From the IMG/VR virus record IMGVR_UViG_2585427760_000004: a stretch of 45,070 bases of DNA; one strand, given 5' to 3'. This DNA is from a virus. Taxonomy: Duplodnaviria > Heunggongvirae > Uroviricota > Caudoviricetes. The position numbers were made by a program. This document shows, piece after piece, positions 39,001-42,000 of this stretch (positions are counted from its first letter, which is position 1; each line of letters opens with the position of its first letter).

Positions 39001-42000
39001 CCTGTTCTTCAGTACATGGTGGGTGTTGGTACCAGTCGGTTTTAAATGCGTGTGAACGCCGCCCATGCCGGATGGCAAGGTCGGTATCAGAATTGTGAAA
39101 TTTGGTTTTGTGCGCCATCTGTTTTCTCTGCTGGCGCAGCAGGTGTCAGGTGTTCAGGCTGACGTGCGAATTGTAAACCAGAATGCCAGAAAAAAACAAA
39201 ACCCGCCGAAGCGGGTTAAGTGCGGGTGCGTTGAGGATGCCTGACACATCAGAGGTGGCGAGGGATTTCTCCCCCGCCAGGTCTCTTACTCCTCAGGTTC
39301 GTAAGCTGTGAAGACAGCGACCTCCGTCTGGCCGGTTCGGAGTCGTACCTCGCAGAGGTCTTTCCTCGTTACCAGTGCCGTCACTATGACGGTTAAACAG
39401 ATGACGATCAGGGCGATTAACATCGCCTTTTGCTGCTTCATAGCCTGCTTCCCCTTGCCTTTCGGCACGTAAGAGGCTAACCTACATTTGTGAGACATAG
39501 ATTGGGCCTCAGATTAATGTTAAGCGTCTTGCAGGACGCGAAATGTTAACTGGGGCTTTTCTCTATCTGCCTTTCAGTGTTCATGCCTGAGACAGATAGC
39601 CTCAAGCACCCGCAGCCATTCTACTTAACTCACGTCACCTCGCCAATATGAAATCAATCAGAAAGGTGATCCATAAAATCACTCCTTCTCTTCTTTTCCG
39701 TAGTGGAGTTGGCCAATTTTGATAAGAGGGCGTCCCTGAGATTTGCGGTGTAGATTGGTATCGCGCAGAGAATACACACAGCCACAATATTCCTGCTGAT
39801 AGAATTTTTCGCGCTTGCTGATTTCAATCATACGGGACGAGCCGCCCTGCTTGCGCCAGTTATAATCCCAGTACACCATACCCGGATAATGCGCAACAGC
39901 TCGCCGCCCACACTCGTTAACCTGCTGCATATTTTTCCAGCGTGAAATGCCCAGTGAACTGCTGATCACACTGAAACCATTTTCAGCAGCGTACAACGCT
40001 GTCCGCTCAAAACGCATGTCAAAACACATGGTACAACGGATCCCCCTCTCAGGCTCCCATTCCATTCCTTTGGCACGTTCAAACCAGTTGTCGGTGTCGT
40101 AATCAGCATCGATAAACGGCACGCCGTGTTGTTCAGCAAAGCGAATATTTTCATCCTTACGAATTAAATACTCTTTCTGAGGATGAATGTTCGGGTTGTA
40201 GAAAAAGATGGTGTAGTCGATTCCCGAGGCCTGAAGCGCCTCCATCACTTCACCGGAACATGGAGCACAGCAAGAGTGCAGTAGTAGTTTGTTTGCCCCG
40301 TTTGGGAGCTCCAATTTAGGCCGTTTGAAATCAGCAATAGTCATAAATATTTTTATTGGGGTCATGAAAATAGCACAGAGTGTAGCATCAGAGCAGGTCT
40401 ATCGGGAATATATGTCTAAATCTGGTAATATCTGGTTTTGACGCAAAGCGGACAACCACGCTGGCTCTACCCTGCGCCATGAAAATGTCAATTCACATCT
40501 GAACTAATGCTCTTTAATCTAGTAACGTCTAAAATACCTAACATTTCCTTGATAAAATGCCAGTACACGCTGCATAGCTTCGCTCTTCCGGCACTCGCGA
40601 CAGATTATATTCAGGCGCCTGTCGTAGCGGCGTATTTCGCCGTCTGGTAACGACCAGATAAGGTCCGGATCAACCACTGCAGGTTTCTTCACCTTTGCCC
40701 TTGAGAGTTTTTTGCGAGCATTTTGCCAGTCCTTACGCGCCTGTTCAGACGGGAATAACCCGTAACCAGAGTTGTATACATCGCCACTGGCAACCAGCTC
40801 TCTGGCGAGAACACTCATCAGATATCTTGTCGCACCTGTCCTGGCTTCCAGTTGCCGCAACGTCTCGCGACCGCTCAGACGTACAAGTTCAACAACCTGC
40901 CCTTTAATTTTTTCCCGCTCTTCTTGTGTAAATACTTTTGCCATAAGCGCCTCCGGCAATCACTTTTCCGATACAACACGGCGGGAAGAATCAGTAATCT
41001 GTCGAACAATATCCCGGTGCTTGTTCAGCTCCCGCAGCGCGGCGCAGACTCGCTCCCACTTCTGAACATCACTTTTCGCCCTGCGCAGCGCCAGGTTTGC
41101 CCTGCGAAGGGACGGAAAAATCAGCTCATCTGCTTGCGTTTCGGTAAACGATGGCAACGGCTGCACAATGTCCGCCACAGTTTCTGTTTTAATTTCTTCC
41201 TGTGTTGCGGCTTCCCGGACTGGTAACGCAGCACCTGCTGGCTGAGGAAAGGCCTTACCATCACTTTCCGTTACCAGCGCGGCTTTCGGCTCTGCTGGTA
41301 AATTATCGCCCGGCATGCAGTAACGAAATTTACCGTTCTGATTAACGCGTGCCAGCCGCCCCGTTGCGGTTACCACCGCCAGCGTGGAAGCAACCTTGCG
41401 AGTACTGACACCGAACTTACCCGCCAGTTCCTCACACGTTTTAGCCCCATCCTGACCGATAAACTCAATCATCATGTCTGCGGTAACTTTTTGTTCGACC
41501 TCCCCGGTCAGCATATCCTGTGCTTCAGATTTTACTGGCCGCTCTTCGGTTACCCGGGATTCACCTTCGCCAGCCAGAAACCAGGTGTGACCAGTTTTAT
41601 CAACGACGCCTTTTCTTTTGAGTTCCCACAGCTCGTTGACAGCCTCTTCACGACTGATTCCAAGGCGAGCTGCCACCACATGTGAAGAGGCTTTTTTCAG
41701 TGCTTTCAGTGCGTCAGATACGGTTTCCATTAAAATTTCCTCCGGACAAAATTACTTCACAACCCTCATATTGCTGACATTTGGACGCCAGCTATCCCAG
41801 TTAAACGTCACCCATCGACCACCGTTCATGGTCATGCGGTCCATAATCCTCTCACCAAGAAGCGTACTCATTGCGGCATGATTCAGGTTTGTTAACATCC
41901 CGACACTGCACAGTGATGCTGTCCGGCGATCAATTATCTGGTGCAATACCACCTGCTCGTTTTTCGTCTCCCGCTGAACGCCTATTTCATCCAGGACCAG

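What the first reader, a model, noticed from the sequence alone, without database searches (positions are those of the whole stretch)
39679..40365. Solitary DUF208/QueH-like gene in the nin-like region, in the position relBE occupies in prophage Qin
The 228 aa protein carries HSCCAPC plus further conserved cysteines, characteristic of the QueH epoxyqueuosine reductase family (assignment from memory). E. coli normally uses QueG for this step, so a prophage-borne QueH-like gene is unexpected. It has its own flanking intergenic regions, no obvious Shine-Dalgarno, and no other queuosine or 7-deazaguanine genes nearby. Neighbour order (DUF968, rem-like, hok) matches Qin, where relB-relE sit next to hokD; here the QueH-like gene is in that slot. 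It might alter host tRNA queuosine status or act on a modified base.
Basis: partly seen in the sequence, partly recalled or inferred. Interest (0 to 1): 0.6.

Follow-up and report, generated by a model that had tools for sequence, protein, structure and literature searches.

The report
Prophage-borne QueH epoxyqueuosine reductase cargo gene
A lambda-like prophage of E. coli carries an intact, self-promoted copy of QueH, an iron-sulfur tRNA-modifying enzyme, which should let the host complete the queuosine modification without vitamin B12; databases already name the gene, but it seems never to have been studied as phage cargo.

Summary
ORF 39679-40365 (-) matches Pfam QueH (PF02677) over the whole profile at 221.5 bits. 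It keeps all six family cysteines. Its AlphaFold model superposes on T. maritima QueH (TM 0.85, rmsd 2.2 A). The conserved start is probably the second ATG (40344, 221 aa).

The gene is an ~0.8 kb cassette with its own conserved extended -10 promoter (TGCTACACT, 40387-40379). It sits in a variable cargo slot between the DUF977 replication-module gene and hok/sok. Other prophages hold relBE (Qin), a HEPN protein, an alpha/beta hydrolase or unknown genes there.

It occurs in 995 of 5,426 complete E. coli genomes, and all 5,426 also have queG. It is also in the isolated phage HannyBb and on IncF plasmids. Mobile copies show dN/dS of 0.02-0.04. RefSeq already names it QueH, whereas PHROGs calls it 'unknown function'. 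A 2019 survey reported no QueA/G/H in viruses.

Most likely it is a cobalamin-independent backup for QueG. No other queuosine or 7-deazaguanine genes are in the window.

Verdict: a correctly read, ordinary-to-moderately interesting cargo gene, and a new member of a known kind.

The parts
39679..40344 (-). queH coding sequence (221 aa from the conserved second ATG; the maximal ORF extends to 40365, 228 aa)
   Evidence: Pfam PF02677 at 221.5 bits over the full profile. T. maritima QueH 7lc5 at E=7.8e-22. Foldseek TM 0.85-0.86 and rmsd 2.2-2.3 A to 7lc5/7lc7. RefSeq product WP_000150294.1 'epoxyqueuosine reductase QueH' uses the same start. The first ATG is not conserved in plasmid copies.
40379..40387 (-). 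Candidate extended -10 promoter element TGcTACACT, about 35-43 nt upstream of the start codon. The -35 is weak (TCCCGA at about 40407-40402).
   Evidence: The element is invariant in the prophage, phage HannyBb, and the Salmonella and Klebsiella plasmid copies. TGCTACA(A/C)T or a close variant lies at the same distance upstream of chromosomal queH in Scandinavium, Kluyvera, Enterobacter, Symbiopectobacterium and Erwinia, although the surrounding sequence has diverged. Function is inferred from conservation and was not measured; the simple two-hexamer scan did not call it.
40345..40460 (-). Conserved 5' block of the mobile queH cassette (leader, promoter, CCCGATAG box)
   Evidence: Alignment A1 shows about 100-125 nt upstream of the ATG shared between the prophage, HannyBb and the IncF plasmid copies, with unrelated sequence further upstream. 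The leader has no significant RNA structure (z=-0.58) and no Rfam riboswitch hit.
40420..40436 (-). Direct repeat ACCAGAT(ATT)ACCAGAT just upstream of the promoter; possible protein-binding site, function unknown
   Evidence: Positions. Conserved in the window, HannyBb and the Salmonella plasmid, but not in the Klebsiella plasmid.
39286..39678 (-). Downstream boundary: the hok/sok module (hok/mok ORF 39286-39498, sok RNA region 39436-39611, hok promoter-like site 39646-39618). The queH cassette ends within about 10 nt of its stop codon.
   Evidence: Rfam RF01794 sok at 120.5 bits. Pfam HOK_GEF. Promoter-like site. Alignments A2 and A7 show that homology to queH-less prophages resumes immediately after the queH stop.
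40519..40959 (-). Upstream boundary: DUF977 (Ren-like) gene, the last gene of the replication module
   Evidence: Pfam PF06163 at 97 bits and phrog_142. All 80 IMG/VR loci with an identical QueH have the same immediate queH flanks; 79 of them match the DUF977 gene and all 80 match the upstream intergenic region and the sok leader.

Best explanation
The gene encodes a genuine, active QueH. QueH is the cobalamin-independent epoxyqueuosine reductase, which uses a [4Fe-4S] cluster plus an adjacent iron.

It travels as a compact ~0.8 kb cassette with its own promoter. The cassette has been recruited into a variable cargo slot of lambdoid prophages, between the replication module (DUF977) and hok/sok, and also onto IncF plasmids.

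Expressed in the lysogen, it reduces epoxyqueuosine (oQ34) to queuosine (Q34) on the host's tRNA-Asp, -Asn, -His and -Tyr. Completion of Q then no longer depends on QueG's cobalamin cofactor, which E. coli must import. During lytic growth it is probably also read through from the early rightward operon.

Shown here: family membership, conserved metal ligands, fold, strong purifying selection, cassette boundaries, conserved promoter element, distribution. Inferred: enzyme activity in E. coli, expression in the lysogen, and independence from B12 as the selective benefit.
For: Family and fold:
- Pfam QueH at 221.5 bits over the full profile.
- All six invariant cysteines are retained, and the CCAPC motif is shared with Acinetobacter, S. 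aureus and core Enterobacterales orthologues.
- The AF2 model (pLDDT 82.8) gives T. maritima QueH structures as its best PDB matches, TM 0.85-0.86.
- The protein is 78-92% identical to chromosomal, solitary, housekeeping-context QueH of Enterobacter, Erwinia, Providencia and Photorhabdus, and comparably identical to copies in Scandinavium and Kluyvera, whose genomic context was not examined.

Selection:
- dN/dS is 0.02-0.04 among the prophage, phage and plasmid copies, at dS 0.26-1.4.
- 985 of 995 E. coli copies cover at least 80% of the gene.

Expression:
- A -10 element is conserved upstream across mobile and chromosomal copies.

Rationale:
- queG is present in 5,426 of 5,426 genomes, so QueH is a second, non-orthologous isozyme.
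- QueG needs cobalamin, and oQ rather than Q is found in bacteria grown in glucose-salts medium lacking B12 (PMC6850298 citing Frey 1988; PMC4646009).
- Carriage on plasmids as well as prophages argues for a benefit to the host rather than a phage-specific role.
Against: - No experiment shows activity or expression of this copy.
- The residue aligned with Asp13 of the solved T. maritima enzyme (a position that was mutated in PDB entry 9dco) is Cys here, although it is Cys in all the sampled homologues outside T. maritima.
- No terminator follows the gene, and no strong -35 precedes it.
- G+C content (48%) does not set it apart from its neighbours.
- Any physiological difference between oQ34 and Q34 in E. 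coli is not established, so the size of the benefit is unknown.
- The gut is not necessarily poor in corrinoids.
Confidence: 0.78

Rival explanations
1. QueH serves the phage rather than the host. It is made mainly during lytic growth as part of the early rightward transcript, to ensure fully matured Q-tRNAs for translating phage genes.
For: The gene has the same orientation as the replication and Q-antiterminator genes. No terminator is predicted between DUF977 and queH or after queH. It is retained in the viable isolated phage HannyBb.
Against: NAU/NAC codon use in prophage early and late genes is unremarkable (55% U-ending). The three phage tRNAs (Arg, Arg, Ile2) are not Q-tRNAs. The gene has its own conserved promoter element. 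It is also carried on non-phage plasmids. This reading is not mutually exclusive with the main explanation.
Confidence: 0.12
2. QueH acts in phage-host conflict as a defence or counter-defence function, for example by changing the anticodon modification state recognised by tRNA-targeting nucleases. This would fit the slot it occupies.
For: In other prophages the same DUF977-to-hok slot holds relBE (Qin), a HEPN-domain protein, and uncharacterised gene pairs.
Against: There is no PADLOC hit. The protein is 80-90% identical to housekeeping QueH and is under strong purifying selection, with no sign of neofunctionalisation. The slot also holds apparently metabolic cargo such as an alpha/beta hydrolase.
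Confidence: 0.05
3. QueH takes part in 7-deazaguanine modification of phage DNA.
For: Some phages use queuosine-pathway enzymes for DNA modification (PMC6884629).
Against: The window contains no DpdA/TGT, FolE or QueC/D/E/F. Known DNA modifications stop at preQ0/preQ1/G+ derivatives, and the survey found no QueA/G/H in such phages. oQ formation needs QueA acting on tRNA.
Confidence: 0.02
4. The gene is a non-functional hitch-hiker captured by illegitimate recombination.
For: It is redundant with the universal queG. It has no Shine-Dalgarno sequence.
Against: dN/dS is 0.02-0.04 among mobile copies with substantial synonymous divergence. 985 of 995 E. coli copies cover at least 80% of the gene. 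All metal ligands are retained. Lack of a Shine-Dalgarno sequence is shared by the other mobile copies aligned (HannyBb and the two plasmids).
Confidence: 0.03

Closest known systems
QueH (DUF208, PF02677/IPR003828) epoxyqueuosine reductase, solved for Thermotoga maritima (PDB 7LC5, 7LC7, 9DEU)
   Same: Full-length profile match, the same six cysteines (CC, CxxC, CxC), and the same fold (TM 0.85, rmsd 2.2 A).
   Different: Only about 31-33% identical. Asp13 of the T. maritima enzyme is Cys here (CCAPC rather than CCAPD). This copy has a ~25-residue C-terminal tail and a short N-terminal extension. It is encoded on a prophage rather than in a core genome.
Chromosomal QueH of Enterobacterales (Enterobacter, Erwinia, Providencia, Photorhabdus; also Scandinavium and Kluyvera, whose context was not examined)
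   Same: 78-92% amino-acid identity. In the genomes whose context was examined the gene is solitary. The CCAPC motif is shared, and a TGCTACA(A/C)T -10 element lies about 43 nt upstream of the ATG in the closest relatives.
   Different: Where examined, those copies sit in housekeeping neighbourhoods (purL, tmcA, icd). This one is inside a lambdoid prophage cargo slot, in a species whose core genome uses QueG.
QueG (YjeS), the cobalamin/[4Fe-4S] epoxyqueuosine reductase of E. coli
   Same: Predicted to catalyse the same reaction, oQ34 to Q34 on tRNA (named pathway knowledge; PMC5372724).
   Different: Non-homologous and cobalamin-dependent. It is a core gene in 5,426 of 5,426 genomes, against 995 for queH.
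Phage 7-deazaguanine DNA-modification clusters (DpdA with FolE/QueC/D/E, e.g. phage 9g, CAjan)
   Same: Phage-borne genes drawn from the queuosine pathway.
   Different: Those clusters make preQ0-derived bases in DNA and contain a transglycosylase. They were reported to lack QueA/G/H (PMC6884629). Here there is a single late-pathway tRNA enzyme and no transglycosylase.
Lambdoid prophage cargo genes ('morons'), e.g. relBE-hokD in Qin and bor/lom in lambda
   Same: An independent gene inserted between conserved phage modules at a slot whose content varies between related prophages. It has a likely own promoter.
   Different: No terminator of its own, no deviant G+C content, and the same orientation as the surrounding operon.

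Membership tests
QueH (PF02677 / DUF208) | Significant full-length match to the family profile HMM | tested here: met
   221.5 bits against a gathering cutoff of 23.5; profile positions 1-174 of 175.
QueH (PF02677 / DUF208) | Six conserved cysteines (CC near the N-terminus, CxxC in the middle, CxC near the C-terminus), which in the solved enzyme bind the [4Fe-4S] cluster and the extra iron (ligand roles from my memory of Li et al. 2021, a paper not held in the library) | tested here: met
   C32, C33, C111, C114, C194 and C196 (228-aa numbering) are invariant in alignments with T. maritima, Acinetobacter, S. aureus and Enterobacterales QueH.
QueH (PF02677 / DUF208) | Acidic ligand Asp13 of T. 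maritima QueH (mutated in PDB 9DCO) | tested here: inconclusive
   The aligned residue is Cys36 (CCAPC). The same Cys is present in every non-Thermotoga homologue sampled, including core chromosomal ones. It is therefore a family-typical variant, but whether it binds metal was not tested.
QueH (PF02677 / DUF208) | QueH fold | tested here: met
   AF2 model with pLDDT 82.8 and pTM 0.83. The five best Foldseek PDB hits are T. maritima QueH entries, target-normalised TM 0.84-0.86 and rmsd 2.2-2.5 A. The next hits (TtuA, LarE) have E of about 3e-4.
QueH (PF02677 / DUF208) | Reduces epoxyqueuosine to queuosine on tRNA | not testable with these tools
   Needs complementation of a queG deletion and LC-MS of tRNA nucleosides.
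QueH (PF02677 / DUF208) | The host supplies the substrate (tgt and queA present, so oQ-tRNA is made) | not tested
   E. coli makes oQ-tRNA (established pathway knowledge; PMC5372724). Only queG presence was tested here: 5,426 of 5,426 genomes.
Prophage moron / lysogenic-conversion cargo gene | Occupies a slot whose content differs between otherwise syntenic prophages | tested here: met
   The DUF977-to-hok slot holds queH, a HEPN protein, small ORFs, an alpha/beta hydrolase or two unknown genes. In Qin, relBE lies next to hokD.
Prophage moron / lysogenic-conversion cargo gene | Own promoter | tested here: inconclusive
   The extended -10 TGcTACACT is conserved across mobile and chromosomal copies. 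There is no expression data, and the two-hexamer scan is negative.
Prophage moron / lysogenic-conversion cargo gene | Own terminator and deviant base composition | tested here: not met
   No terminator-like site between queH and hok. G+C is 48.2%, against 47.5-54% for the neighbours.
Phage 7-deazaguanine DNA modification system | DpdA/TGT-family transglycosylase plus preQ0 synthesis genes | tested here: not met
   None found among the ORFs of the window scanned with Pfam.
Known anti-phage defence systems (PADLOC) | Match to a defence-system protein model | tested here: not met
   No PADLOC hit for QueH.

The most novel reading that the evidence does not exclude
Mobile-element QueH may be selected because it uncouples queuosine maturation from the TonB/BtuB cobalamin-import route. 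Phages, colicins and the elements themselves attack that route.

This prophage also encodes a periplasmic lipoprotein made of a TonB C-terminal domain (28628-28969). A 41%-identical homologue lies about 1 kb from queH on at least six Klebsiella IncF plasmids.

If such proteins block TonB-dependent receptors to exclude phages or colicins, or if lysogens lose BtuB, QueG would be starved of B12 and QueH would keep tRNA fully modified. The two genes would then form a functional pair. That would be a new kind of compensatory cargo.
Probability: 0.07. Interest if true: 0.6.

Novelty: new member of a known kind. Interest (0 to 1): 0.3.

Why it matters
If active, nearly one in five sequenced E. coli strains can finish the queuosine tRNA modification without vitamin B12. 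The trait is acquired horizontally on prophages and plasmids and is invisible in K-12-based models of the pathway.

It would be a clear case of a temperate phage carrying a late-step tRNA-modification enzyme as host-benefit cargo. A 2019 virus survey reported that QueA, QueG and QueH were absent from viruses. Phage annotation resources (PHROGs, the HannyBb record) still list this protein as unknown.

The practical value is modest. It corrects phage annotation, matters for interpreting oQ/Q measurements in wild E. coli, and provides a simple testable system for asking whether oQ versus Q matters physiologically.

Tried and rejected
- **Riboswitch or structured leader upstream of queH.** Rfam at permissive E-value found only sok. 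The leader fold has z=-0.58. Rejected.
- **Phage-specific need for Q decoding.** NAU/NAC usage is unremarkable, and the phage tRNAs are Arg/Arg/Ile2. Not supported.
- **DNA-modification role.** No partner genes are present. Rejected.
- **Defence-system membership.** PADLOC is negative.
- **NCBIfam.** No model hit for QueH, which is uninformative.
- **Phage records with QueH.** Apart from HannyBb, the hits are either evidently chromosomal contigs ('Acinetobacter phage MD-2021a' has soxR and cynX as neighbours), or a 282 kb record flagged UNVERIFIED_ORG ('Staphylococcus phage SA 1306 Kay'), or unverified faecal contigs. They were not used as evidence for phage carriage.
- **Literature.** Eight searches found no paper on prophage- or plasmid-borne QueH in E. 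coli. The key QueH papers (Zallot 2017, Li 2021, Frey 1988) are not held, so statements about them rest on citing papers or on my memory.
- **Link between QueH and the TonB_C lipoprotein.** The lipoprotein gene is in 415 genomes, mostly STEC. The queH+ prophage of strain CE10 lacks it. No cross-tabulation was possible with the tools. Left open.
- **Failed scripts.** Two scripts failed without output. The dN/dS calculation was redone with my own Nei-Gojobori code.
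Full report
**1. The observation**

The minus strand carries an ORF at 39679-40365 (228 aa) containing HSCCAPC. It matches Pfam PF02677 (QueH, formerly DUF208) at E=1.1e-65 and 221.5 bits (gathering cutoff 23.5), over profile positions 1-174 of 175. Against PDB sequences the only hits are Thermotoga maritima QueH entries (7lc5, E=7.8e-22), aligned over residues 27-203. NCBIfam has no model that hits it.

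The six cysteines that characterise the family are present: CC, CxxC and CxC, at C32/C33, C111/C114 and C194/C196. They are invariant in alignments that include T. maritima, Acinetobacter, S. aureus and many Enterobacterales proteins. An AlphaFold2 model built on 46 homologues has pLDDT 82.8 and pTM 0.83. Its five best Foldseek matches in the PDB are T. maritima QueH structures (target-normalised TM 0.84-0.86, rmsd 2.2-2.5 A). The next hits, TtuA and LarE, are at E of about 3e-4.

The residue aligned with T. maritima Asp13 is Cys here. PDB entry 9dco is a D13N mutant of that position. The same CCAPC motif occurs in every other homologue I sampled, so this is the common form of the family rather than a defect.

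**2. Start codon and expression signals**

I aligned the upstream regions of four copies: this prophage, the isolated E. coli phage HannyBb, a Salmonella IncFII plasmid and a Klebsiella IncFII/IncR plasmid. The first ATG (40365) is not conserved; it reads ATT in both plasmids. The second ATG (40344) and its surroundings are invariant. Orthologues and RefSeq (WP_000150294.1, 221 aa) start there too.

Neither ATG has a Shine-Dalgarno sequence. The leader is A/U-rich, and this holds for the four mobile copies aligned.

About 100-125 nt upstream of the ATG is conserved among the mobile copies. The block includes an invariant CCCGATAG...CTGATGCTACACT. TGcTACACT (40387-40379) fits an extended -10 promoter. 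The same element, TGCTACA(A/C)T or a close variant, lies about 43 nt upstream of chromosomal queH in Scandinavium, Kluyvera, Enterobacter, Symbiopectobacterium and Erwinia, although the flanking sequence there is unrelated. I take this as good comparative evidence, but not proof, that the gene brings its own promoter.

The leader has no riboswitch or significant structure. No terminator is predicted before or after the gene. Read-through from the early rightward operon during lytic growth is therefore also likely.

**3. Context**

The window is a lambdoid prophage. On the minus strand the order is:
- cro/cII-like genes and YdaS/YdaT;
- an O-like gene and a DnaC-like gene;
- DUF1627 and DUF977;
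- queH;
- hok/sok;
- a 90-aa ORF;
- DUF968, RusA and Q;
- a DNA methylase and three tRNAs (Arg-TCT, Arg-TCG, CAT anticodon);
- a SASA esterase and the lysis genes;
- HNH, terminase, portal and a protease-capsid fusion;
- the tail genes.

Host yciE/yciF-like genes lie at the left end. No TGT/DpdA, FolE or QueA/C/D/E/F/G is present among the ORFs scanned.

Rfam finds sok at 39436-39611 with 120.5 bits. In K-12 Qin the order is ydfT(Q)-ydfU-rem-hokD-relE-relB, so relBE does sit where queH sits here. The DUF968 protein is 79% identical to YdfU. The 90-aa ORF has no similarity to Rem.

**4. A cargo slot with sharp boundaries**

Homology between the prophage and plasmid copies of the cassette ends within about 10 nt after the queH stop codon. 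Homology to queH-less prophages resumes at exactly that point, with the hok/sok leader.

DUF977-type modules occur at 6,507 places in 4,087 genomes. In four sampled prophages without queH, the DUF977-to-hok interval holds:
- a HEPN-domain protein;
- a set of small ORFs;
- an alpha/beta hydrolase on the opposite strand;
- two unknown ~320-aa proteins.

In 80 IMG/VR prophage contigs with an identical QueH, the immediate queH flanks (upstream intergenic region and sok leader) are the same in all 80, and 79 also match the DUF977 gene.

**5. Distribution**

- queH is found in 995 of 5,426 complete E. coli genomes: 1,014 chromosomal places and 3 on plasmids. 985 genomes have a copy covering at least 80% of the gene. 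Every row listed is named 'epoxyqueuosine reductase QueH' by RefSeq.
- queG is in all 5,426 genomes, so QueH is always a second, non-orthologous isozyme.
- In the plasmid collection, 305 records encode a QueH, including 99 Klebsiella and 68 Escherichia.
- Among 50,697 phage records, the only convincing phage with a close relative is HannyBb (95% amino-acid identity, same slot, annotated 'hypothetical protein'). The other hits are chromosomal or unverified contigs.
- PHROGs contains the family as phrog_3217, 'unknown function'.
- Hutinet et al. 2019 stated that no QueA, QueG or QueH homologues were found in the viruses they analysed (PMC6884629).
- Eight literature searches found nothing on prophage- or plasmid-borne QueH in E. 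coli.

**6. Origin and selection**

The closest non-Escherichia relatives are Scandinavium (92%), Kluyvera (91%), Enterobacter (88-90%) and Symbiopectobacterium (87%). Erwinia, Pantoea, Serratia, Photorhabdus and Providencia follow at 79-86%.

Where I checked, these copies are solitary genes in ordinary chromosomal neighbourhoods: icd in Enterobacter, purL/glrK in Erwinia, tmcA in Providencia. The family is unusually conserved overall, at 75-80% identity out to Sphingomonas and Neisseriaceae.

Among mobile copies, dN/dS is 0.02-0.04 with dS of 0.26-1.4. That excludes a decaying passenger. G+C content (48%) is not distinctive.

**7. Mechanism**

By homology, the protein reduces epoxyqueuosine at position 34 of tRNA-Asp/Asn/His/Tyr to queuosine, using iron-sulfur chemistry instead of cobalamin. 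QueG depends on cobalamin (PMC4646009). oQ34 rather than Q34 is found in bacteria grown in glucose-salts medium without vitamin B12 (PMC6850298 citing Frey et al. 1988).

The simplest account is a self-expressed cargo gene that makes Q completion independent of B12 supply. Its presence on plasmids as well as prophages points to a benefit for the host.

The alternatives have less support:
- Phage translation: codon usage is unremarkable.
- DNA modification: there are no partner genes.
- Defence: there is no PADLOC hit.
- Non-functional passenger: purifying selection is strong.

Enzyme activity, expression in the lysogen and the fitness benefit are all inferred.

**8. A side lead**

ORF 28628-28969 (-) encodes a 113-aa lipoprotein with lipobox LVMGC that consists of a TonB C-terminal domain (PF03544, 55 bits). 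It sits between Rz and the terminase genes and is preceded by a perfect 10-1-10 inverted repeat. RefSeq calls it 'TonB family protein'. It occurs in 415 genomes, mostly STEC.

A 41%-identical lipoprotein lies about 1 kb from queH, in divergent orientation, on at least six Klebsiella plasmids. The queH+ prophage of strain CE10 lacks it, so there is no obligatory link. A compensatory relationship, in which blocking TonB/BtuB starves the cell of B12 and QueH offsets the loss, is speculative.

**9. Verdict**

The gene is a bona fide QueH carried as mobile cargo. It is already named by RefSeq in about 18% of complete E. coli genomes, but it is unrecognised in phage resources and apparently unstudied.

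It is a new (phage- and plasmid-borne) member of a known enzyme family. Interest is modest, mainly as a horizontally acquired, B12-independent route to finishing queuosine.

Noticed in passing
window 28628-28969 (-), with inverted repeat at 28973-28993: A 113-aa predicted lipoprotein (lipobox LVMGC) made of a TonB C-terminal domain (PF03544, 55 bits). It sits in the lambda 'bor' position between Rz and the HNH/terminase genes, preceded by the perfect inverted repeat TTAGAATAAG-a-CTTATTCTAA. RefSeq names it 'TonB family protein'. It is in 415 of 5,426 E. coli genomes, mostly STEC. It may be a periplasmic TonB decoy that excludes phages or colicins.
   Followed up: partly
L008 3601-3936 (-) and 4946-5614 (+) (Klebsiella plasmid NZ_CP089512.1), and five other plasmids: A 41%-identical TonB_C lipoprotein lies about 1 kb from queH, in divergent orientation, on at least six Klebsiella IncF plasmids. 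On a Salmonella IncFII plasmid (L007) queH lies beside fecC/fecE. Mobile queH therefore repeatedly neighbours TonB- or iron-uptake genes. Whether this is functional or just linkage is unknown.
   Followed up: partly
window 38846-39118 (-): The 90-aa ORF between hok and DUF968 is not Rem-like (no BLASTP similarity to K-12 Rem). It belongs to phrog_1212, unknown function. Some prophages (L094) carry both this gene and rem.
   Followed up: yes
window 39196-39277 (-): A sub-threshold Rfam match to the IsrK Hfq-binding sRNA (27 bits, gathering score 50) overlaps an intrinsic-terminator-like hairpin at 39217-39200, just downstream of hok. It could be the hok mRNA 3' end or a prophage sRNA.
   Followed up: no
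window 40420-40436 (-): Direct repeat ACCAGAT-ATT-ACCAGAT immediately upstream of the queH promoter element. It is conserved in the phage and Salmonella plasmid copies and may be a regulator-binding site.
   Followed up: partly
window 2914-3582 (+): A class I SAM-dependent methyltransferase (phrog_2132, unknown function) on the opposite strand, just beyond the tail-fibre assembly gene near the prophage end. It is another cargo-type gene.
   Followed up: no
L094 2404-3336, L097 1320-3299, L096 2361-3134: In other E. coli prophages the same DUF977-to-hok slot holds a HEPN-domain protein, a pair of unknown ~320-aa proteins, or an alpha/beta hydrolase. It is a cargo hot spot that may hide uncharacterised defence genes.
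   Followed up: partly
L102-L181 (genome-contig scan): QueH is unusually conserved: 75-80% amino-acid identity between Enterobacterales, Neisseriaceae, Sphingomonadaceae, Rhizobium and Paracoccus, while synonymous sites are saturated. This implies very strong constraint or frequent horizontal transfer.
   Followed up: no
phage collection records CAKLQH020000001.1 and OR844989.1: The record labelled 'Acinetobacter phage MD-2021a' (328 kb) is evidently a bacterial chromosomal contig, with soxR and cynX neighbours. The 282 kb record 'Staphylococcus phage SA 1306 Kay' is flagged UNVERIFIED_ORG, carries no annotation, and looks chromosomal from its size. Both can mislead counts of phage-borne genes.
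   Followed up: yes
window 34826-35075 (-): A tRNA cluster downstream of the Q antiterminator and methylase: Arg(TCT), Arg(TCG) and a CAT-anticodon tRNA (annotated tRNA-Ile in the related CE10 prophage). This is typical of Stx-type lambdoid phages. None of them is a queuosine tRNA.
   Followed up: yes
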